DNA of 37,918 nt, taken from assembly GCA_001784735.1 (NCBI GenBank), contig MFSB01000006.1, positions 1-37,918 on the forward strand, given 5' to 3'. Position numbers and translations under genes: made by a program. Source of the stretch: Candidatus Moranbacteria bacterium RIFCSPLOWO2_12_FULL_48_12. GTDB lineage: Bacteria > Patescibacteriota > Minisyncoccia > Moranbacterales > UBA1568. Shown here piece after piece: positions 4,308 through 31,968 of the stretch. Position 1 is the first letter of the stretch. Each line of letters opens with the position of its first letter. The notes beneath the pieces were generated by a model. The model was not told the origin of the DNA. It did not search any database and worked only from the letters and a program-made list of their open reading frames with translations.

Positions 4308-7300
4308 TTACCGAGCTCGCGGCTGGCCCGGTTCGCGGTAGCCGGTACCGGCCGGGATGAGGCGTCCGATGATGACGTTTTCCTTGAGCCCCCGCAGACG
4401 GTCCTCTTTGCCCTGCACGGCGGCATTGATGAGCACGCGCGCGGTCTCCATAAAGGAGGCGGCGGAGAGGAAAGATTCGGTGGAGAGCGCCACTTTGGTA
4501 ATCCCCAAGACCATCGATTCGCCGACGGCTTCGCTCCCCTTCTTGCCGATGGCAACTTCATTGGCTTCGAGAAATTGGTCTTTCTCGACGATGTCTCCGG
4601 GAAGAAGCACGGTATCGCCCGGATCAGTCACGCGCACCCGGGAAAGCATCTGACGGATAATCACTTCGATATGCTTGTCGTTGATGCCCTCGCCCTGCGC
4701 GGCATAGATTTCTTCGATTTCGCGGATGATGTAGCGATGCACCGCTTCCTGGCCCATCACCGTGAAGAGTTTGCGAAGATCGATATGCCCCTCAGAGAGG
4801 ATGGCGCCGACGGAAACGAGATCCCCTTCCTTGACACGAAGTCCCACGTTGGCCGGAGCCTGATATTCATAGAGTTTCTTGCCCTGATCCTCAACCGTGA
4901 TCTTGATGACTTTGGCATTGTCTTTGATGATCGTCTTCACCTGGCCGTCCGCTTCGGAAAGAATGGCTTCCGTCTTCGGCACGCGGGCTTCAAAAATCTC
5001 TTCTACCCGCGGCAGACCCTGGGTGATGTCCGAACCGGCCACACCCCCGACATGAAAGGTCCGCATGGTGAGCTGAGTGCCCGGCTCGCCGATGGCCTGA
5101 GCGGCCACTACGCCGACGGACGCTCCGAGTTCGACCAAGGCGTTTCGGCCGAGATCGATGCCGTAGCACATCCGACAAACGCCGCGCCGGGATTTGCACG
5201 TCACCAGGCTGCGGATCTTCACCTTGACGATATTCTTCCTCTCGATCGCTTTGGCCTGAGCCTTGGAAATGAGGATGCCTTTTTTCACGATCACCTCCTT
5301 GGTGTCCGGATCCTTGAGCGTCTCGACGGTCGTGCGGCCTTCCACACGCAAAGCATAGCTATGGCCGATAGCGTCGGAATCCTCGCGGTAGAGATAGACG
5401 CCTTCCGTATCCTCGCAATCTTCTTCGCGGACGATGATGTCCTGCGCCACATCGACAAGGCGGCGCGTCAAATAACCGGCAGTCGCGGTCCGAAGAGCGG
5501 TATCTGCCATCCCTTTGCGGGCGCCGTGCGTCGAAATGAAATATTCGAGAACATTGAAGCCTTCTTTGAAGGAGCTCTTGACCGGCAGTTCGATGGTTTC
5601 CCCCGTCGGTCCGGACATGAGCCCCTTCATACCGGTCATCTGCACGACGACGGATTCGGAACCGCGGGCTTTGGAAAAGATCATCGAATATACAGGACCT
5701 TCCTTGTCGAGCGAGGCGCGCACCGCGTCGGTGATCTTATTCTTGGTTTCGTTCCAGATTTCGATGACGCGATTGCGGCGCTCCTCGTTGGTGAGAAGCC
5801 CCATATTATATTGGTCTTTCACCTCTCTCACCTGGATTTCTGCGGCCGCCATATGCGCCGGCTTTTCCTTCGGCACGATGAGATCATCCATGCCCCAGCT
5901 GATACCGGAGCGGGAAACAGCCCGGAAAGCCAGATCTTTCAGGCGATCGGCAAACTGAGCCGCTTCATCCTGACCGAGCGTCTCGAGGATGCGGGACATG
6001 AGACCCTTCAGATCCTTCTTCACCATTTCTTCGTTCACGAAACGGAGGCTCTCCGGAAGAATGTCATTCAAAAGCACGCGGCCGACAGAAGTTTCGATCA
6101 ATTGGCCATTGTAGGAAAGCTTCACGGCGACATTCACATCCACGATACCGTTTTGATGGGCCAGGATGGCTTCATCTAGAGAGCCGAATATTTTTCCCTG
6201 GCCAAGGCCTTCTGGTTTGATATGCGTGAGATAATATATCCCGAGCACCATATCCAAAGTCGCCGACACGATCGGTTCGCCGGATGCCGGTTTCAAAAGA
6301 TTTTTGGAAGAGAGCATGATGGTCGCGCTCTCATGGCGGGCCTGATCGGTGAGCGGCACATGCACCGCCATCTGGTCGCCGTCGAAGTCGGCATTGAACG
6401 CGGAACAGACCATCGGATGGAGGCGGATGGCCTTGCCTTCGATAAGTACCGGTTGGAATGCCTGAATAGAGAGACGATGGAGTGTCGGCGCGCGGTTCAG
6501 GAGCACGTAATGGTGTTCGATGATTTCGTCGAGGATTTCATACGCTTCTTCCGCTTCGGCGTCCACCATCCGACCGGCGGTACGGACGTTATGAGCCAGC
6601 TCTTTCTCGATCAATTTGTTGATGATGAATGGTTTGAAAAGTTCCAGCGCCATCTTCTTCGGCAGACCGCACTGATGGAGTTTCAATTTCGGACCGACGA
6701 CGATGACGCTCCGTCCGGAGTAGTCCACGCGCTTCCCCAACAGGTTCTGGCGAAAACGCCCTTGCTTGCCTTTGAGAGCGTCAGCCAGCGAACGGAGCGC
6801 GCGGCGCTGACCGGTCGAAGCGGCGGTCGAGGCTTGGCCTCGACGAGCGCTGTTATCGAAGAGTGCGTCCACCGCTTCCTGCAGCATTCTTTTTTCATTG
6901 CGGGTAATGACTTCCGGAGCGCCGATAGCCATCAATTTTTTCAAACGGTTGTTGCGATTGATGATGCGGCGGTACAGATCATTCAAGTCAGACGTGGCAA
7001 AACGGCCGCCATCCAGCGCCACCATCGGACGAAGGTCCGGCGGGATGACCGGGATAGAAGTCGGAAGCATCCACTGGAAAGACAATTTCGCCGTCTCGAA
7101 ACCCTGGTACACCTTCAGACGCTGCAGAAGCTTCTTCTGATCGGTCGCTTCGCTATCTGCCAGTTCGGCTTTCAAGACCTTCAATTGCTTTTTGACATCG
7201 ATCTTTTCGAGAATCTTGCGCACCGCTTCAGCTCCGATGCCGGCCGTGAAAATCTGTCCGAAACGGCTGGAGAGGTTGAAGTACTCCACTTCGGAAAGAA

Positions 7301-19066: not shown

Positions 19067-19164
19067 CTTGGGAAGTTTACCCGCCTTTGGCGGGCTAGTG
19101 TACCACCATTGCCTGCCCGCCCGAAGTCCCGATACATCGGGACAAAGGAGGGTACTAATCCCGC
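19067..19164 (-). pseudogene. relic 5' half of tRNA-Gly(CCC) with two hairpin insertions
   Basis: Removing 19076-19094 and 19112-19152 leaves a 38-nt copy of the neighbouring tRNA 5' part with one mismatch. Confidence 0.85.
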
Positions 19165-24176: not shown

Positions 24177-24824
24177 TTAAAGTTTTTTCAAATCCTCAAT
24201 ACTAATGTATTTGAAAGAATCAATAACTTTGTCAGCGCCACCTAACTCTTCGGCTGTGTGCGTAGTGGTAATCCCAATGACTTTCATCCCTGCTGCTTGT
24301 GCAGATTTAATACCTGAAAGCGAATCTTCAAAAGCCACACAATGTATAGGATTTATCAATAATTTCTTCGCAGTCAAAAGGTAAATCTCAGGATCCGGTT
24401 TGCCTTTGGATATCTCCTCAGCAGTCACTATTTTTTTGAAAAACTGACGGATATTCAAACCATCCAAAATAAAATCCGTATATGGTTTACGGGCGCTTGT
24501 TGCTACAGCAAAAGGAATATTGTGTGCTTTGAGTTCGTGGAAAAATTCAAGTAATCCTTCAGTCAGTGCTACTTTTGATTTGAATAGGAAAATTGCGATT
24601 CCCACTCTTTCTGCTGAATATTTTTCAAGCTCATCGGAAGATAATTGCCTATGAAAAAGGGAAGAAAAGATATCCGCTTCGGTTCTGCCAAAAACATTGT
24701 GTTTAAACTCATCTTCCGTCAAACGAAAACCATACTTCTGACACCATTGCCGCCATGCCTCTTGATGAATGCGTTCATCATCGATAATGACGCCATTCAT
24801 ATCGAAAACAATAGCTTGAAACAT
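24177..24824 (-). CDS. HAD-superfamily phosphatase (beta-PGM/CbbY-like, subfamily IA)
   Basis: AIVFDMNGVIID (second Asp of DxD replaced by Asn), AVATSA, KGKPDPEIYL, FEDSLSGIKSA. Confidence 0.9.
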   Translation of the reverse strand: MFQAIVFDMNGVIIDDERIHQEAWRQWCQKYGFRLTEDEFKHNVFGRTEADIFSSLFHRQLSSDELEKYSAERVGIAIFLFKSKVALTEGLLEFFHELKAHNIPFAVATSARKPYTDFILDGLNIRQFFKKIVTAEEISKGKPDPEIYLLTAKKLLINPIHCVAFEDSLSGIKSAQAAGMKVIGITTTHTAEELGGADKVIDSFKYISIEDLKKL

Positions 24825-24871
24825 ATAGGTATTGTAACTTTCTTACCTTTTTCTGTTTATTTCTATTACTT

Positions 24872-24921
24872 TGAGCGAGAGACCCTCCTCCGCTACGCTA
24901 CGGACGGGCAGGCGGGAATCG
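24872..24921 (-). pseudogene. relic tRNA-Gly 3' end with a 30-nt hairpin insertion
   Basis: CGATTCCCG[24883-24912]TCTCTCGCTCA on the minus strand. Confidence 0.75.
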
Positions 24922-24931
24922 CTATTACTTA

Positions 24932-25011
24932 GAGCGGGGATACAAGAATCTCCGCCTGCACCCCGCCAAGGCGGGAAGCATTGCGGGCAGGGAACCCGCG
25001 TATCTCGCTTG
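24932..25011 (-). pseudogene. relic tRNA-Gly 3' half with a 41-nt hairpin insertion in the T-loop
   Basis: CAAGCGAGATACGCGGGTTC[24951-24991]GATTCTTGTATCCCCGCTC on the minus strand. Confidence 0.78.
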
Positions 25012-25029
25012 TTCCAAAAACTGCAAAAT

Positions 25030-26190
25030 TTATAATGTAATCAGCGGGTGGGCGCTGGTGATTGTTTTCACTACGACGTTGTATTTCGCCGTGAAGGCCC
25101 GAGTAGCGACTCGTTTATCTTTCCATTTTATTTCATACGCGGAAATTTTTTCTCCCTCTTTGACGACCAGGTCAACTTCTGATCCGGTCCGCGACCGCCA
25201 AAAATAAAGACTTTTTTTCTGTCCAGCCAGCATATTTTGCTTGGCAAATTCCGCTACTACCCAATTTTCCCAAAGATGCCCAATATCCGACCGCAACGGA
25301 TTGGAGGAAAACTCATTCAAAATAGCATTGCGCACCCCCGTATCCCAAAAATATATCTTGTGGCTCTTGGAAATTTCTTTCCTCAGATTGGTGCTGAAGG
25401 CCGGTAAACGGAAAATAACAAAGGTCTGTTCCAACAAATCCAAATAGCGCTCCACAGTAGCTCTGGCCATTCTCAAGCTGGAAGCTAATTCATTGGTCGA
25501 TACTTCGGATCCGATTTGATGCGCCAGTAAAGCCAGAAGTTTCTTGATCAATTCTGGAGTTTTTATCAGCCCCATTTGCAAAACATCCTTGAAGAGATAG
25601 TCGGAAATGAGATTCAAAAGATATTGCTTTTTACCGCTTTCCAAAATCACCTCCGGATAACTTCCAAAAACAACGGCCTGCATCAAAAGCTCAGATATCT
25701 GATGGGAAAAATCCCTTTCTATTTGGTCGTCAGTATAAACATCGGCATACCACTCCTTGGAACGTACTATTTCCCCGAACTGCAATGGCGTAACGAATAA
25801 TTTTTCATTTCGCCCAGTCAAGCTTTCCGCCGACTGATTCAGCAAATCAAGGCTGGATGATCCTAAAAGAATAATTTTTGAAGACACATCTGAGTCATAC
25901 CACCCTTTTACGATTGAGCCTATCTGAGGCAAGCGCTGCGCTTCATCGATTATCAGATAATCCGGATTGCCAAAACTCTGCATCGCTTCTTTCGGAGACA
26001 ACGAGGCAGCAGAAATTATTTTTTGTTTATCGATATCTACGTCAAAATTCAAGAAAAGACTCTTTTTTGTCTTCAGCGCGTACTTCACCAGAGTGGTTTT
26101 TCCCACCTGTCTCGCTCCGATAATAATCATTATTTTTGGGGAGATAAGGTAACTCATGAACTTATTCTCCGCTTTTCTAGCTATATACAT
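25030..26190 (-). CDS. AAA_14-type ATPase with DUF4143 / C-terminal PD-(D/E)xK-like domain
   Basis: GARQVGKT, LIIDEAQ, LLGSS, ESLTGR, KIYFWDTGVRN, LWENWV, FWRSRTGSEVDLV..AYEIKW. Confidence 0.92.
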   Translation of the reverse strand: MYIARKAENKFMSYLISPKIMIIIGARQVGKTTLVKYALKTKKSLFLNFDVDIDKQKIISAASLSPKEAMQSFGNPDYLIIDEAQRLPQIGSIVKGWYDSDVSSKIILLGSSSLDLLNQSAESLTGRNEKLFVTPLQFGEIVRSKEWYADVYTDDQIERDFSHQISELLMQAVVFGSYPEVILESGKKQYLLNLISDYLFKDVLQMGLIKTPELIKKLLALLAHQIGSEVSTNELASSLRMARATVERYLDLLEQTFVIFRLPAFSTNLRKEISKSHKIYFWDTGVRNAILNEFSSNPLRSDIGHLWENWVVAEFAKQNMLAGQKKSLYFWRSRTGSEVDLVVKEGEKISAYEIKWKDKRVATRAFTAKYNVVVKTITSAHPLITL

Positions 26191-26260
26191 ACTTTAATCA
26201 TACAAATAACCGTACATTTTGTCAAGTGAACATTACAAAATGTAGTCTTCTTTAGTTAGA

Positions 26261-26297
26261 TGAGAGAGACGGGAATCGAACCCGCGTATCTAGCTTG
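26261..26297 (-). pseudogene. relic tRNA-Gly 3' half
   Basis: CAAGCTAGATACGCGGGTTCGATTCCCGTCTCTCTCA: anticodon 3' strand, intact T arm and an acceptor strand with a 2-nt deletion. Confidence 0.85.
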
Positions 26298-26523
26298 TCC
26301 CGAAAACTTCAAAATTTTAATTTTAGCCGTTTTTGTGACCCCGAGTCTTTGAGCGGGTAAACGGAATCGAACCGTCATCCACAGCTTGGAAGGCTGTTAT
26401 AATAACCATTATACGATACCCGCAATTGCCATCTTTTACCTCGTTCCCATTGTATACTACATAAATTTTGAAGCTCGGAATCCTCGGAAATCTAGTTTTG
26501 CTTTCGCTCAAAGATTTTCGGGA
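26298..26523. mobile_element. 226-bp inverted-repeat-bounded segment carrying tRNA-Gly(TCC)
   Basis: Left arm TCCCGAAAACTTCAAAATTT (26298-26317); right arm AAATTTTGAAG (26463-26473) plus TTTTCGGGA (26515-26523). The ends coincide with the two relic tRNA halves. Confidence 0.65.
26352..26423 (-). tRNA. tRNA-Gly(TCC)
   Basis: GCGGGTA TC GTAT AATGGTTA TTAT A ACAGC CTTCCAA GCTGT GGAT GACGG TTCGATT CCGTT TACCCGC T. Confidence 0.93.
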
Positions 26524-26699
26524 GAAGCTTGCCCGCACCGCATACGCGGAGCGTTTCGGGCGGGGCTGGCGTACTACCCGCCTCGACTCGCGACGCTCAT
26601 CGACGCGAGGCCGGCCATTGCCTGCCCGCCACACTGCGTAAGCTGTAGGTGGGTACTATTTACCCGTCCGTAACCAGAATGGTGGAGGAGGGCTCTCGC
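26524..26699 (-). pseudogene. relic tRNA-Gly 5' half with four hairpin insertions
   Basis: Removing 26528-26564, 26577-26614, 26621-26653 and 26659-26692 leaves GCGAGAGTAGTACAATGGTAGTACGCCAGCCTTC. Confidence 0.82.
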
Positions 26700-26714
26700 T
26701 TATTTTTCAGGTAT

Positions 26715-27449
26715 CTACTTCTGATCGACGCCCCGCAAACCGGTGAAAGGATCCTTGTAACGTTGTTCTTTCGGTACGCCGAGATCAATTAACATTTTTT
26801 CCATGGCTTCGACAAACGGGAGTGAACCGACGAGATAGTACAACTTTCCAGGAATATCGTCAATATATTTGGTAATCATCGGCACACAGATATACCCGCG
26901 TTCATCGTTTATCGGCTGACAGACCTCGTCTGATTGACTGAGTACCGTGATACAGCGAAAATGCGGCAGAGGCAGAGGCTTGATCTCTTCACAGAAAGCG
27001 GCATCTTTGAGAAAGCGATTGGAATACAAAAGGGTAAAATCACGGGTACTGCCTTCATGCGCCGCTTGCTTCAAAATACTTCTCACCGGGGTGATGCCGA
27101 TACCACCGACCAGAAACACCACCGGGCGCAGATCTCCTTTGGGTACGGTGAAAAATCCTACGGCTTTGGTAATGGTGATCGTATCGCCTGGCTGCATCTG
27201 CCAAAATGTCTGCTTGAAACCGCTCATTCCACGGCGCATAGCGAAATGCATTTCTGATTCGAAGGGAGAGGAAGCAATAGAGAAAGAGCGCACCGGCCCT
27301 TTGGGATCCGGAGCGACGAGTTTGGGTAGTGTCAAAGCCACATACTGGCCAGCCTGAAAAATATATCCCTCTGGTTTGTCAAAAATAAAAAGGCGGGTGC
27401 CATCGGCTACCTCGCGTGTTCCTTTGAGAGTGAGAGTGTATCCTTGCAT
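26715..27449 (-). CDS. FAD/NAD(P)-dependent oxidoreductase (ferredoxin-NADP reductase-like)
   Basis: FQAGQY, RSFSIASSP, GGIGITPVRS, LLYSNR. ATG 27449 is chosen because the longer start runs through a repeat. Confidence 0.9.
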   Translation of the reverse strand: MQGYTLTLKGTREVADGTRLFIFDKPEGYIFQAGQYVALTLPKLVAPDPKGPVRSFSIASSPFESEMHFAMRRGMSGFKQTFWQMQPGDTITITKAVGFFTVPKGDLRPVVFLVGGIGITPVRSILKQAAHEGSTRDFTLLYSNRFLKDAAFCEEIKPLPLPHFRCITVLSQSDEVCQPINDERGYICVPMITKYIDDIPGKLYYLVGSLPFVEAMEKMLIDLGVPKEQRYKDPFTGLRGVDQK

Positions 27450-31541: not shown

Positions 31542-31588
31542 TGTCGGAGCACCCGGAATCCCCGCCTGCCGTCGGGCAGGGAACCGGA
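31542..31588 (-). pseudogene. relic tRNA-Pro-like 3' end with a 20-nt hairpin insertion in the T-loop
   Basis: TCCGGTTC[31561-31580]GATTCCGGGTGCTCCGACA on the minus strand. Confidence 0.72.
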
Positions 31589-31597
31589 ACTAAAATT

Positions 31598-31617
31598 TGG
31601 TCGGGGTGCTGGGAATC
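31598..31617 (-). pseudogene. duplicate of the tRNA-Pro(TGG) 3' end, with CCA
   Basis: GATTCCCAGCACCCCGACCA; 18 nt are identical to the intact gene's 3' end. Confidence 0.8.
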
Positions 31618-31715
31618 CCCTTCGGGCCTGGGCTATCCTGCGAGACAGGTTAGCCCTTCTCTTCCCAACGCAAGTGAAGCAGTTCACTTGCTTCACCCGC
31701 CTTCACTTCGTTTTG

Positions 31716-31876: not shown

Positions 31877-31898
31877 GATTGAGATGCGACGGGGCAAG

Positions 31899-31968
31899 AA
31901 GCATGCGTACTATCCGCCTCGACTCGCTTCGCTTGCCGACGCGAGGCGGGCCGGTATACGACACCCCG
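31899..31968 (-). pseudogene. exact copy of the tRNA-Pro(TGG) 5' 32 nt with a 38-nt hairpin insertion in the D-loop
   Basis: Removing 31913-31950 gives a sequence identical to 31755-31786. Confidence 0.88.

What the first reader, a model, noticed from the sequence alone, without database searches (positions are those of the whole stretch)
26261..26699. A tRNA gene inside a tRNA gene: intact tRNA-Gly(TCC) in an inverted-repeat segment splitting an older tRNA-Gly(TCC) at its anticodon
Seen: the 5' relic with its four hairpins removed (…GCCAGCCTTC) joins the 3' relic (CAAGCTAG…) with no gap or overlap. This gives GCGAGAG TA GTAC AATGGTA GTAC G CCAGC CTTCCAA GCTAG ATAC GCGGG TTCGATT CCCGT CTCTC[GC]T, a nearly complete tRNA-Gly(TCC); the missing GC is present in the 24872 relic. 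The intervening 226 bp (26298-26523) begins TCCCGAAAACTTCAAAATTT and ends with its complement, split by 41 nt. It carries an intact tRNA-Gly of the same anticodon but clearly different sequence. Inference: a tiny mobile unit that targets a tRNA anticodon and complements the damage with a whole isoacceptor gene, which amounts to tRNA gene replacement. An alternative is sequential disruption followed by rescue. I do not know a described element with this layout.
Basis: partly seen in the sequence, partly recalled or inferred. Interest (0 to 1): 0.86.

Follow-up and report, generated by a model that had tools for sequence, protein, structure and literature searches.

The report
Live tRNA gene inside dead one
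In a tiny groundwater bacterium the working glycine tRNA gene sits inside the broken, repeat-riddled remains of an older glycine tRNA gene, one snapshot of a repeated gene-replacement process at tRNA genes that I could not find described.

Summary
On the minus strand, five short pieces (26699-26524) plus 26297-26264 match the intact GCGAGAG-type tRNA-Gly(UCC) of a congener at 67 of 68 positions. ARAGORN calls the in-script join tRNA-Gly(tcc). A 226-nt segment carrying an intact GCGGGTA-type tRNA-Gly(UCC) lies exactly between anticodon positions 34 and 35. Independent contigs from other studies bridge every junction without a difference.

Congeners (Candidatus Moranbacteria, CPR) carry either type intact at the same syntenic site. 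Two carry the reverse nesting, and G004 is a three-layer doll, A[B[A]B]A. In this genome 15 of 44 tRNA loci have cognate relics.

Best reading: recurrent replacement of tRNA genes by insertion into the anticodon region. The displaced copy is then colonised by dispersed GC-rich palindromes and by a candidate defence gene (PDC-S01). Small GIY-YIG endonuclease genes abut tRNA genes across the genus and lie between relic and live tRNA-Gly(UCC) in three congeners. That suggests, but does not prove, a homing-endonuclease drive. No such gene is present in this window.

The parts
26693..26699 (-). Relic A (GCGAGAG-type tRNA-Gly(UCC)), positions 1-7, the acceptor 5' strand. It lies directly after the oxidoreductase gene, as the intact gene does in relatives.
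26659..26692 (-). GC-rich insert 1 (34 nt), after tRNA position 7. It is largely complementary to insert 6. A related insert sits at the same place in the G023 relic.
   Evidence: (query 1-61, 82% in G023)
26654..26658 (-). Relic A, positions 8-12
26621..26653 (-). GC-rich insert 2 (33 nt) at the D stem/loop. Its end, GGCGGGCAGG, is complementary to the start of insert 5.
   Evidence: (I14)
26617..26620 (-). Relic A, positions 13-16
26579..26616 (-). GC-rich insert 3 (38 nt) in the D loop. Related copies occur at window 31905-31952 and in several relatives.
26565..26578 (-). Relic A, positions 17-30
26528..26564 (-). GC-rich insert 4 (37 nt) at the anticodon stem/loop border. It is the only insert that folds better than its shuffles (z -2.3). 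A 35-nt identical copy occurs in G019.
26524..26527 (-). Relic A, positions 31-34 (CTTC). The break lies after anticodon position 34.
26298..26523 (-). Inserted 226-nt segment. Arms are 26523-26515 plus 26473-26463, and 26317-26298. It holds 100 nt of upstream sequence with a TACAAT box shared with G057, the live tRNA, and a 53-nt trailer.
26351..26423 (-). Intact GCGGGTA-type tRNA-Gly(UCC). It is the only tRNA-Gly(UCC) found in the assembly.
26261..26297 (-). Relic A 3' half, copy 1. It has no inserts. Its acceptor end is mutated (CTCTCTC A instead of CTCTCGC T).
25030..26190 (-). ORF of 386 aa, AAA_14 plus DUF4143. It matches PADLOC defence candidate PDC-S01. A promoter-like site lies at 26225-26197. 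The ORF is flanked by the two copies of arm plus 3' half.
25012..25031 (-). Second copy of the 3' arm (17 of 20 identical)
   Evidence: (D2)
24873..25011 (-). Relic A 3' half, copy 2. tRNA blocks are 25011-24993, 24921-24914 and 24883-24873. Insert 5 (24992-24922, T loop, 71 nt) and insert 6 (24913-24884, 30 nt) interrupt it. The acceptor end CTCTCGC T is correct.

Best explanation
This is the tRNA-Gly(UCC) locus of a Candidatus Moranbacteria (CPR) genome, caught after a gene replacement by insertion.

Proposed sequence of events:
1. The resident GCGAGAG-type gene (A) was broken between anticodon positions 34 and 35.
2. A 226-nt piece of DNA was fixed in the break. It carries a complete GCGGGTA-type tRNA-Gly(UCC) gene (B) with its own upstream region. 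The cell needs one working tRNA for GGA codons.
3. The displaced halves of A became pseudogene pieces.
4. Six GC-rich palindromic repeats then colonised those pieces, at the acceptor/D junction, the D arm (twice), the anticodon stem/loop border, the T loop, and the T-stem/acceptor junction.
5. A candidate defence gene (PDC-S01: AAA ATPase plus PD-(D/E)XK domain) came in with a duplication of the junction plus 3' half.

The locus is one instance of a recurrent process. tRNA genes of this lineage are repeatedly overwritten by a new copy placed inside or beside the old one.

The break is most likely made by a nuclease specific for tRNA genes. The candidates are the small GIY-YIG endonucleases that abut tRNA genes across the genus, working like phage T4 SegB. 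The endonuclease gene would since have been lost from this locus.

What is shown: the relic, the nesting, the synteny, the reciprocal nestings in relatives, the repeat nature of the inserts, and the GIY-YIG/tRNA association.

What is inferred: the order of events (new copy first, decay after), cutting by a nuclease, and loss of the endonuclease gene here.

My odds: pseudogene-plus-replacement about 0.9; new copy before decay about 0.7; a homing-type nuclease as the driver about 0.4.
For: (1) The relic is real. 67 of 68 positions are identical to the intact gene of G023, far above shuffles. ARAGORN calls both in-script joins tRNA-Gly(tcc).

(2) Synteny. CofD, oxidoreductase, tRNA-Gly(UCC) and orf426 are in the same order in relatives. 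I read 8 loci with an intact A-type gene; by the printed flanks and tblastn, 7 of them (L013-L019) follow the oxidoreductase gene, and L020 gave no oxidoreductase hit. 29 of the 37 loci with an intact gene hold B.

(3) Reverse and multiple nesting. In G004 and G020 a B relic holds an intact A. G004 is A[B[A]B]A, with every half in order. In G023 an A relic surrounds an intact A. The break points cluster: window CTTC|CAAGC, G004 outer CTTCCAAG|, G004 and G020 CTTCCAAGC|, and the window tRNA-Gly(CCC) relic CTTCCCAAG|.

(4) Turnover. On a tree of the linked oxidoreductase, types A and B need at least 5 changes. Only 2 of these are forced by well-supported branches. The window's B is 71 of 73 identical to the B of G008 and G024, whose oxidoreductases are 59% and 53% identical to the window's. 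The nearest oxidoreductase (71%, locus L029) goes with a B of only 63 of 73.

(5) The pattern is genome-wide. 15 of 44 tRNA loci have a cognate relic scoring more than 6 above the best of 30 shuffles. The other two tRNAs of this window are among them.

(6) GIY-YIG ORFs (PF01541, E 1e-13 to 1e-19) abut tRNA-Gln(CTG), tRNA-Ser(CGA) and tRNA-Gln(TTG) in this genome. All 3 are relic loci, against 12 of the other 41. Such ORFs lie between relic and live tRNA-Gly(UCC) in G006, G017 and G021, and on a Saccharibacteria contig. Of 32 GIY-YIG ORFs in 30 sampled loci of the genus, 9 end within -20 to +4 nt of the start of a same-strand tRNA. The Tyr, Tyr, Arg, His and Glu columns are invariant.

(7) The inserts are dispersed repeats. 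Relatives of inserts 3, 4 and 5 occur elsewhere in this genome and in congeners. The same 20-mer sits in the T loop of the tRNA-Pro(TGG) relic and of the tRNA-Arg(TCT) relic. Another 20-mer is found in 50 of 401 genomes sampled across the phylum, with 0 hits for the reversed control.

(8) Precedent. SegB recognises the T-psi-C stem-loop motif of tRNA genes and drives inheritance and amplification of tRNA gene segments (abstracts of PMC2330249 and PMC13096335; section 10 of the latter).
Against: - No GIY-YIG ORF or remnant is detectable at this locus or anywhere in the window. The best profile hit has E 0.63. Only 3 of 44 tRNA loci of the genome have one within 600 nt. So 13 of the 16 relic loci, counting this one, would need loss of the endonuclease gene.
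- No cleavage has been shown. These 80-90 aa proteins have no recognisable DNA-binding domain, unlike SegB.
- The tRNA-derived pieces of the relic carry almost no private substitutions although they hold six insertions. An A-relic-around-B layout with the same B subtype exists in G004 (97% over 36 nt), whose neighbouring gene is only 63% identical. If that layout is shared by descent, a neutral pseudogene should have decayed far more. This points to recent transfer, gene conversion, or selection on the relic, none of which I could separate.
- The position-specific and mutually complementary inserts look more orderly than random decay.
- The two 3' halves and the inverted-repeat arms have no worked-out origin.
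- The tree is a FastTree of one linked 249-column protein with many open forks, and 8 of 38 loci were dropped (too short, or no intact gene).
Confidence: 0.55

Rival explanations
1. The 226-nt segment is a miniature transposon defined by its inverted-repeat arms. It targets tRNA anticodons and carries a spare tRNA as cargo.
For: The insertion is clean, with no gap or overlap, exactly at anticodon position 34/35. A 20-nt arm has an inverted partner. A second copy of the arm is joined to a second 3' half (D2).
Against: The arm has only the two local copies in the genome at up to 3 mismatches. No hit to the non-tRNA parts of the segment appeared in 50 genomes of the genus at E<=1e-6. Among 61 relatives at E<=0.001, a few tRNA hits run 5-46 nt into the upstream part (G057, G041, G022). 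There is no target-site duplication. The 5' arm is interrupted by 41 nt. Its inner half belongs to an upstream region shared with G057. The nested units in G004 and G020 have no arms.
Confidence: 0.1
2. These are scars of integrase-type integrative elements that use the tRNA gene as attB. The repeated 3' halves would be attL and attR of a small island that now holds only the PDC-S01 gene.
For: Direct repeats of arm plus 3' half (40 nt at 90%, 48 nt at 85%) flank the PDC-S01 gene. Partial tRNA copies at island ends are a well-known result of integration (PMC9897764, passages read). Three further PDC-S01 paralogs have flanking repeats: 53 and 101 nt at 91% and 93% for two of them, and an 18-nt match at E 0.002 for the third.
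Against: The whole 0.99-Mb assembly has one tyrosine-recombinase match, on another contig, yet at least 16 tRNA loci carry relics. The repeat includes 20 nt of non-tRNA arm. Integration of this kind gives a restored gene plus one displaced part. It does not put a complete different tRNA gene inside the anticodon of the old one, and it does not give three concentric layers as in G004.
Confidence: 0.12
3. Disruption first, rescue second. GC-rich palindromes destroyed the resident gene, and a foreign tRNA-Gly(UCC) was selected afterwards.
For: The palindromes are dispersed repeats that sit in tRNA loops of many relics. The inner gene is nearest to alleles of more distant species.
Against: tRNA-Gly(UCC) is single-copy in the assembly and is needed for GGA codons. 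A cell with the sole copy disrupted should not persist long enough to be rescued. No ARAGORN-detected live tRNA carries such an insert, although ARAGORN would miss one that did. 3' half copy 1 has no inserts at all.
Confidence: 0.1
4. The interrupted gene is functional. It would be either an intron-containing or split tRNA, or a structured RNA/DNA scaffold built from a tRNA. For example, its paired flanks could form a processing stem around the live tRNA, or it could act as a decoy or immune copy against a nuclease that cuts tRNA genes.
For: Insert types are position-specific across relics of different tRNAs and genomes. Insert 1 is complementary to insert 6, and the end of insert 2 to the start of insert 5. 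The tRNA-derived pieces are almost unchanged. CPR rRNA genes are known to carry many insertions (PMC10714607, passage citing Tsurumaki 2022).
Against: There is no tRNA splicing endonuclease domain in the genome. Every relic examined has an intact cognate gene beside or inside it. Copy 1 of the 3' half has a damaged acceptor end. A 1.2-kb protein gene lies between the 5' half and the intact-ended 3' half. There is no Rfam family hit. Only 1 of 6 inserts folds better than its shuffles.
Confidence: 0.08
5. Assembly artefact: a chimeric join of two tRNA-Gly loci in a metagenome bin.
For: The genome is a 55-contig metagenome assembly with short runs of N.
Against: Contigs assembled independently from runs of three other studies cover 24800-26760 with 0 differences and bridge every junction.
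Confidence: 0.01

Closest known systems
Phage T4 SegB, a free-standing GIY-YIG homing endonuclease in a tRNA gene cluster (PMC2330249, abstract; PMC13096335, abstract and section 10)
   Same: A GIY-YIG nuclease gene lies among or beside tRNA genes. [quoted passage not shown] The tRNA region is preferentially inherited, and segments containing a whole tRNA gene are amplified.
   Different: SegB is a phage protein with a DNA-binding part. Here the ORFs are 80-90 aa, sit in cellular CPR genomes, and often end inside the first bases of the tRNA. Partial or nested tRNA relics remain. No GIY-YIG gene is present at the window's locus, and no activity has been shown.
Mobile endonuclease ORFs that carry a replacement part of the target gene, such as the Allomyces mitochondrial atp6 element (recalled from memory, paper not read here)
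   Same: The incoming DNA brings a working copy of what it interrupts. The displaced resident part remains as a pseudogene beside it.
   Different: That case concerns a protein gene and a partial copy fused in frame. Here a whole tRNA gene lies inside the anticodon of the old one, repeatedly and reciprocally.
Partial tRNA genes left by integrative elements at att sites (PMC9897764, passages read; Williams 2002 cited there)
   Same: Duplicated tRNA parts flank inserted DNA. The two copies of arm plus 3' half around the PDC-S01 gene look like this.
   Different: There is no integrase at the locus and only one in the genome. The relic encloses a complete, different isoacceptor allele. The relics are riddled with GC-rich inserts.
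Archaeal disrupted tRNA genes: multiple or transposing introns and split tRNAs (PMC10714607, passage citing Fujishima 2009 and 2010)
   Same: Several short GC-rich insertions sit at non-canonical positions of a tRNA gene. Complementary GC-rich flanks are present. tRNA-Gly(UCC) is among the affected genes.
   Different: Those genes are the only copies and are spliced by the BHB endonuclease. This is a bacterium without that enzyme, and it has an intact copy.
Small GC-rich palindromic mobile repeats: REP elements with RAYT transposases, yeast mitochondrial GC clusters, Allomyces double-hairpin elements, Rickettsia palindromic elements (all recalled from memory)
   Same: Short, dispersed, GC-rich, imperfectly palindromic repeats in a less GC-rich genome, some inserted into RNA genes. 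Two Y1_Tnp (RAYT-like) genes exist in this genome.
   Different: Here the inserts take the same positions in the loops of displaced tRNA copies. No link to the Y1 transposase genes was shown, and their own flanking palindromes are of another kind.
Insertions with homing endonuclease genes in CPR rRNA genes (Tsurumaki 2022, as cited in a passage of PMC10714607)
   Same: Same phylum, stable-RNA genes as targets, and endonuclease ORFs. In this genome two GIY-YIG ORFs are followed by sequence I judged 23S-rRNA-like by eye.
   Different: Those are introns or insertions removed from the rRNA. Here the interrupted tRNA copy is replaced, not repaired.

Membership tests
Free-standing GIY-YIG homing endonuclease cassette (SegB-like) | A GIY-YIG endonuclease gene within or beside the inserted DNA | tested here: not met
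   Nothing in the window: the best profile hit has E 0.63, and tblastn hits are all E >= 0.045 and scattered. The feature is met at the same locus in G006, G017 and G021, and at 3 other tRNA loci of this genome.
Free-standing GIY-YIG homing endonuclease cassette (SegB-like) | Site-specific cleavage of the allele that lacks the cassette | not testable with these tools
   Needs purified protein and tRNA gene substrates. Only the conserved catalytic columns were seen.
Free-standing GIY-YIG homing endonuclease cassette (SegB-like) | Presence/absence polymorphism at one site among relatives, with patchy phylogenetic distribution | tested here: met
   The GIY-YIG motif scan of 42 fetched loci (L002-L024, L027-L045) found the ORF beside tRNA-Gly(UCC) in 4 of the 37 loci that hold an intact gene (L031, L036, L040, L041). 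The tRNA types need at least 5 changes on the tree, 2 of them forced. A 71% identical ORF occurs on a Saccharibacteria contig.
TIR-bounded miniature transposon (MITE) | Terminal inverted repeats | tested here: inconclusive
   A 20-nt 3' arm is present, but the 5' arm is split into 9 + 11 nt by 41 nt. Part of it is shared upstream sequence of tRNA-Gly(UCC) in G057.
TIR-bounded miniature transposon (MITE) | Target-site duplication | tested here: not met
   The two relic halves join with no gap and no overlap.
TIR-bounded miniature transposon (MITE) | Several copies in the genome or in relatives | tested here: not met
   Only the two local arm copies at up to 3 mismatches. No hit to the non-tRNA parts of the segment in 50 genomes of the genus at E<=1e-6.
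Integrase-mediated island in a tRNA gene | Direct repeats of a tRNA part flanking the inserted DNA | tested here: met
   Arm plus 3' half is repeated around the PDC-S01 gene: 48 nt at 85% and 40 nt at 90%.
Integrase-mediated island in a tRNA gene | A tyrosine or serine recombinase gene in the island | tested here: not met
   For tyrosine recombinases, the only PF00589 match in the genome is on contig C23. Pfam on the neighbouring ORFs shows none. Serine recombinases were not searched genome-wide.
Archaeal-type intron-containing or split tRNA | A tRNA splicing endonuclease in the genome | tested here: not met
   PF01974 gave 0 matches in the own genome (94.8% complete). The controls rang in 4 archaea.
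Archaeal-type intron-containing or split tRNA | The interrupted gene is the only source of that tRNA | tested here: not met
   An intact tRNA-Gly(UCC) lies inside it.
Archaeal-type intron-containing or split tRNA | Bulge-helix-bulge motifs at the exon/intron borders | not tested
   No BHB search was run.
Group I intron in a tRNA anticodon loop | A match to the group I intron covariance model | tested here: not met
   No Intron_gpI hit at E<=10 in 24600-26900. As a positive control in the same genome, the tRNA-Tyr(GTA) insert matches with 38.7 bits, E 9e-8.
PADLOC PDC-S01 (candidate single-gene defence system) | A full-length match to the PDC-S01 profile, with AAA_14 and DUF4143 domains | tested here: met
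   PDLC04789, E 8e-118, residues 1-378. PF13173 and PF13635 match. DUF4143 is listed as PD-(D/E)XK in PMC3424549 (table row seen). Defence activity was not tested.

The most novel reading that the evidence does not exclude
Patescibacteria may have a site-directed process that places whole tRNA genes into the anticodon-loop region of the resident isoacceptor gene, giving concentric 'Russian-doll' loci such as A[B[A]B]A in G004. A set of position-specific GC-rich palindromes is then installed in the D, anticodon and T loops of the displaced copy. Under this reading the palindrome-studded relic is not mere debris. It would be kept, or moved together with the live gene, as an immune or decoy copy against nucleases that cut tRNA genes, or as paired flanks that help process the enclosed tRNA. 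That would explain why its tRNA-derived pieces stay almost unchanged while the neighbouring genes have diverged to about 63% protein identity.
Probability: 0.22. Interest if true: 0.88.

Novelty: new variant of a known kind. Interest (0 to 1): 0.68.

Why it matters
tRNA genes are usually treated as the most stable landmarks of a bacterial genome. Here, in a roughly 1-Mb CPR genome, a third of them carry the remains of earlier copies. One locus switches back and forth between two alleles by nesting a new gene in the anticodon of the old one.

If a nuclease that targets tRNA genes drives this, it extends the SegB principle (a homing endonuclease spreading tRNA genes) from phages to cellular genomes. 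It would also show a new way for a selfish element to hit an essential gene without killing the host: bring or make a spare copy.

There are practical consequences too. Such relics confuse tRNA annotation, they mark insertion hot spots where defence genes land, and the GC-rich palindromes shared across the phylum are a ready handle for studying DNA mobility in organisms that cannot yet be cultured alone.

Tried and rejected
- Known RNA families. Rfam at gathering threshold over the whole window gave only the three tRNAs. At E<=10 over 24600-26900 it gave nothing but the live tRNA and chance-level hits. A known structured RNA or a group I intron is therefore rejected for this locus.
- Introns. 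ARAGORN with introns allowed added tRNA-Tyr with a 200-nt insert, which matches the group I intron model at 38.7 bits, below Rfam's gathering score of 50 (E 9e-8). It also added a tRNA-Gln call, which I judged a false positive by eye because it lies in what reads as protein-coding sequence.
- Splicing endonuclease: none in the genome.
- GIY-YIG remnants in the window: none. The only faint similarity is a 12-aa stretch at 31651-31616, E 0.6-1.8.
- The idea that the phylum-wide 20-mer sits at the tips of existing hairpins. By eye it looked so. The count did not bear it out: 2 of 32 occurrences have 5 or more contiguous complementary flank pairs, against 2.9% at random positions. I dropped that claim.
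- Folding. Only 1 of 6 inserts beats its shuffles.
- Copies of the inserts in the own genome, by blastn-short. Inserts 1 and 2 have none, and inserts 3-6 have few and short ones. This is a loose family, not a high-copy MITE.
- Expression. No RNA holder is listed among the runs, so nothing can be said about expression.
- Cover. X15 and X17 left 26648-26713 and 26582-26647 without cover. X13 record 4 covers both.
- Papers. Six searches found no description of nested tRNA genes, or of GIY-YIG/tRNA relic loci, in CPR bacteria. This covers only the held open-access library.
- Not used: structure prediction, complex prediction, the protein atlas and the large protein searches. None would have changed the reading.
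Full report
WHAT IS THERE. I read the locus on the minus strand. The layout is as follows.
- 26699-26524: the 5' half of a tRNA-Gly(UCC) gene that begins GCGAGAG (type A). It is cut into five pieces by four GC-rich inserts of 34, 33, 38 and 37 nt.
- 26523-26298: a 226-nt segment holding an intact tRNA-Gly(UCC) that begins GCGGGTA (type B, 26423-26351; ARAGORN; Rfam 62.9 bits).
- 26297-26261: the 3' half of type A, uninterrupted.
- 26190-25030: a 386-aa ORF.
- 25031-25012: a second copy of the segment's 3' arm.
- 25011-24873: a second 3' half of type A, with two more inserts of 71 and 30 nt.

CHECK OF THE OBSERVATION. I aligned the intact type-A tRNA of congener G023 to the window with a local alignment that allows long free insertions. 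200 shuffled queries gave 23.2 +/- 3.9 (max 37). 200 random genome stretches of the same length gave a max of 32. The second 3' half aligns at 37 of 38 positions (score 57; shuffle max 23). Joins made inside a script from these coordinates are called tRNA-Gly(tcc) by ARAGORN with either 3' half.

The arms are as described: a 20-nt 3' arm, and a 5' arm of 9 + 11 nt split by 41 nt. The word 'hairpins' is generous. All six inserts are GC-rich, but only one folds better than its dinucleotide shuffles (z -2.3; the others -0.4 to -1.0). Insert 1 pairs largely with insert 6, and the end of insert 2 with the start of insert 5.

The assembly is sound. Logan contigs from runs of other studies cover 24800-26760 without a single difference and bridge every junction. 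20 runs from 14 studies of groundwater and soil metagenomes hold the stretch.

THE ORGANISM. The genome is 0.99 Mb in 55 contigs, 48% G+C and 94.8% complete, with 44 tRNA genes plus a tRNA-Tyr that carries a group I intron. Public titles of three congeners' contigs read Candidatus Moranbacteria / Moraniibacteriota. This is a CPR (Patescibacteria) bacterium.

RELATIVES.
- Gene order. CofD, oxidoreductase, tRNA-Gly(UCC), orf426 is shared. The window has two extra genes between the tRNA and orf426: the 386-aa ORF and a HAD hydrolase.
- Types. Of 38 loci fetched, 37 have an intact tRNA-Gly(UCC): 8 of type A and 29 of type B. In the 50 genomes of the genus, 9 match the A-type 3' half. By BLAST, no genome searched showed both types intact.
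- Reverse nesting. In G004 and G020 a type-B gene carries GC-rich inserts in its anticodon and T loops and is broken after CTTCCAAGC. It holds an intact type-A gene preceded by 8 nt.
- Three layers. In G004 this sits inside a further type-A relic, so the locus reads A[B[A]B]A with all halves in order.
- Same-type nesting. In G023 a type-A relic surrounds an intact type-A gene.
- Flank relics. Relics scoring 38 or more lie in the flanks of 10 of the 37 loci.
- Tree. On a FastTree tree of the linked oxidoreductase (31 rows; 8 of 38 loci dropped as too short or lacking the gene), A and B need at least 5 changes. Two of these are forced by well-supported branches.
- The window's B allele. It is 71 of 73 identical to the B of G008 and G024, whose oxidoreductases are only 59% and 53% identical to the window's. 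The closest oxidoreductase (71%) accompanies a B of 63 of 73. The B relic of G004 is 97% identical to the window's live B over 36 nt.

THE PHENOMENON IS GENOME-WIDE. I scanned the 450-nt flanks of all 44 tRNA genes with the same alignment. 15 loci have a cognate relic scoring more than 6 above the best of 30 shuffles. The relics carry GC-rich inserts of 20-160 nt, mostly in the D loop, at the anticodon loop, and in the T loop between TTC and GATTCC. Both other tRNAs of this window are affected.
- tRNA-Gly(CCC) has a 5' relic at 19164-19067 with inserts in the D loop and anticodon loop. Its break is after CTTCCCAAG, 12 nt before the live gene.
- tRNA-Pro(TGG) has a 5' relic at 31968-31895 and two 3' relics at 31617-31600 and 31590-31543.
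- The 20-nt T-loop insert of that Pro relic is identical to the one in the tRNA-Arg(TCT) relic on another contig.

THE INSERTS ARE DISPERSED REPEATS. Relatives of inserts 3, 4 and 5 occur elsewhere in this genome and in congeners, one of them 35 of 35 identical in G019. The octamers CGGGCAGG and CCTGCCCG are about threefold over-represented (34 each, against 10 and 13 expected). 10 of the 68 occurrences lie within 600 nt of a live tRNA.

A 20-mer sits in the anticodon loop of the relics of G006, G017, G021 and a Saccharibacteria contig. It occurs, with at most one mismatch, in 50 of 401 genomes sampled across the phylum; the reversed control gave 0. Most of those copies are not near tRNAs. My impression that it sits at the tips of pre-existing hairpins did not survive a count.

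ENDONUCLEASE GENES.
- In G006, G017 and G021 an 80-84 aa ORF lies between a 5' relic (positions 1 to about 50-54, with the 20-mer in its anticodon loop) and the live tRNA-Gly(UCC). It is a GIY-YIG domain (PF01541, E 1e-13 to 1e-14).
- A Saccharibacteria contig has the same layout around a third tRNA-Gly(UCC) type. Its ORF is 71% identical over residues 1-51, and only that part matched.
- In the own genome, GIY-YIG ORFs end 1-9 nt from tRNA-Gln(CTG), tRNA-Ser(CGA) and tRNA-Gln(TTG). All three are relic loci, against 12 of the other 41.
- Two more are followed by sequence that I judged 23S-rRNA-like by eye.
- 48 of 50 genomes of the genus have such ORFs. Of 32 ORFs in 30 sampled loci, 9 end within -20 to +4 nt of the start of a same-strand tRNA, and 12 have a tRNA within 300 nt.
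- The two Tyr, Arg, His and Glu columns are invariant in eight aligned sequences.
- In the window itself no GIY-YIG trace was found.

THE OTHER GENE. The 386-aa ORF has AAA_14 and DUF4143 domains and matches PADLOC's defence candidate PDC-S01 (E 8e-118). DUF4143 is listed among the PD-(D/E)XK nucleases (PMC3424549, table row). The ORF has a near-consensus promoter-like site (11 of 12). The genome holds 7 paralogs. Three (this one, C36 and C22) are flanked by direct repeats of 40-101 nt at 90-93%, and C27 by an 18-nt match. This gene therefore also arrived with a duplication of its target.

HOW IT MOST LIKELY WORKS. The resident gene was broken in its anticodon loop. That loop is the one stretch identical in all alleles (CTTCCAAGC). 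A DNA piece with a whole tRNA-Gly(UCC) gene was fixed in the break. The new gene carries the same site again, so the process can repeat. That predicts nested rather than tandem copies, as seen in G004.

The inner gene brought at least 46 nt of upstream sequence. This aligns with the upstream of tRNA-Gly(UCC) in G057, a genome of another family, and includes a TACAAT box. The displaced copy, now free to decay, collects GC-rich palindromes and cargo.

The agent that makes the break is not shown. The tight GIY-YIG/tRNA association, together with the SegB precedent, makes a homing-type nuclease the best candidate. [quoted passage not shown] An integrase route is weak: the genome has one tyrosine recombinase, on another contig. 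Two RAYT-like Y1 transposase genes exist and might move the palindromes, but no link was shown.

WHAT DOES NOT FIT.
- The relic's tRNA pieces are almost unchanged, although the same A-around-B layout occurs in G004, a species whose neighbouring gene is only 63% identical.
- The insert types are position-specific and partly complementary to one another.
- The arms and the doubled 3' half lack a worked-out origin.
Recent transfer of whole cassettes, gene conversion, or selection on the relic could each explain the conservation. I could not separate them. This is why I give the functional or immune-copy reading real, if minor, odds.

NOVELTY. The parts are known kinds:
- free-standing homing endonucleases at tRNA genes (SegB);
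- mobile ORFs that bring a replacement for what they interrupt (Allomyces atp6, recalled);
- partial tRNA genes at integration sites (PMC9897764);
- small GC-rich palindromic repeats;
- insertions in CPR rRNA genes.
The combination appeared in none of six literature searches. It consists of whole tRNA genes nested reciprocally in the anticodon of the previous copy, position-specific palindromes in the displaced copy, and spread over a third of the tRNA loci of a cellular genome. Those searches cover only the held open-access library, and supplements were closed. I rate it a new variant of a known kind, interest 0.68.

Noticed in passing
window 19067-19164 (-): A 5' relic of tRNA-Gly(CCC) lies directly upstream of the live gene (19054-18983). 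It has GC-rich inserts in the D loop (19151-19111) and the anticodon loop (19093-19076). The break is after CTTCCCAAG. The 12-nt leader AGACATTAATAA resembles the leader GGACATTGAAAATT at the A/B junction of G004.
   Followed up: partly
window 31895-31968, 31600-31617 and 31543-31590 (-): Layered relics surround tRNA-Pro(TGG) (31786-31715). There is a 5' relic with a 37-nt D-loop insert related to insert 3, and two 3' relics. One 3' relic is of a different acceptor type and has a 20-nt T-loop insert identical to the one in the tRNA-Arg(TCT) relic on contig C24.
   Followed up: partly
G000:C34:14323-14606: The only tRNA-Tyr(GTA) gene carries a 200-nt insert in its anticodon loop. The insert matches the Rfam group I intron model at 38.7 bits (E 9e-8), below the gathering score of 50.
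   Followed up: partly
G000:C31:4692-5060 and 6951-7226 (-): Two GIY-YIG ORFs are followed by sequence that looks like 23S rRNA, so they appear to sit in insertions of the 23S rRNA gene. I judged this by eye only and ran no rRNA model.
   Followed up: no
loci L084, L089, L090, L095, L099 (genus relatives): In 5 of 32 GIY-YIG ORFs the reading frame runs 9 nt into the following tRNA, so the stop codon falls on tRNA positions 8-10. In the own tRNA-Asn those three bases read TAG.
   Followed up: partly
G000:C8:8173-8192, G000:C33:6918-6937 and loci L050-L079: A 20-nt GC-rich palindrome (8-bp stem with one G-T pair, 4-nt loop) occurs in 50 of 401 genomes sampled across the phylum (47 of 319 genera), often letter for letter, in varied contexts. 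I do not know what keeps it so constant.
   Followed up: partly
G000:C36:3121-4053 and G000:C8:25779-26483: Two Y1_Tnp (IS200/RAYT-like) ORFs. The C8 copy is flanked on both sides by a palindrome built on TTGGAAGC..GCTTCCAA, which resembles the tRNA-Gly(UCC) anticodon loop region. This may be coincidence.
   Followed up: no
G000:C36:12508-13599, C22:550-1563 and C37:1673-2764: Other PDC-S01 (AAA_14 plus DUF4143) paralogs are flanked by direct repeats of 101 and 53 nt at 93% and 91%. The C37 copy lies between two truncated N-terminal GIY-YIG fragments. These genes seem to insert with long target duplications.
   Followed up: partly
loci L012, L013 and L035, downstream of tRNA-Gly(UCC): A conserved element of about 100 nt lies between an inverted copy of the T arm/acceptor 3' strand and a direct 3' relic, just after the terminator of the live tRNA. 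In L035 it is duplicated. L006, L009 and L034 have looser versions.
   Followed up: no
window 24177-24824 (-): A HAD-family hydrolase gene lies between the tRNA locus and orf426. In none of the 8 relatives' loci that held an orf426 match did a HAD match appear between it and the tRNA. This is another insertion at this hot spot.
   Followed up: no
window 31616-31651 (-): A 12-aa stretch resembling the GIY-YIG 'NLxRRxxxHxxG' region lies between tRNA-Pro and its 3' relic (tblastn E 0.6-1.8). This is not significant and may be nothing.
   Followed up: no
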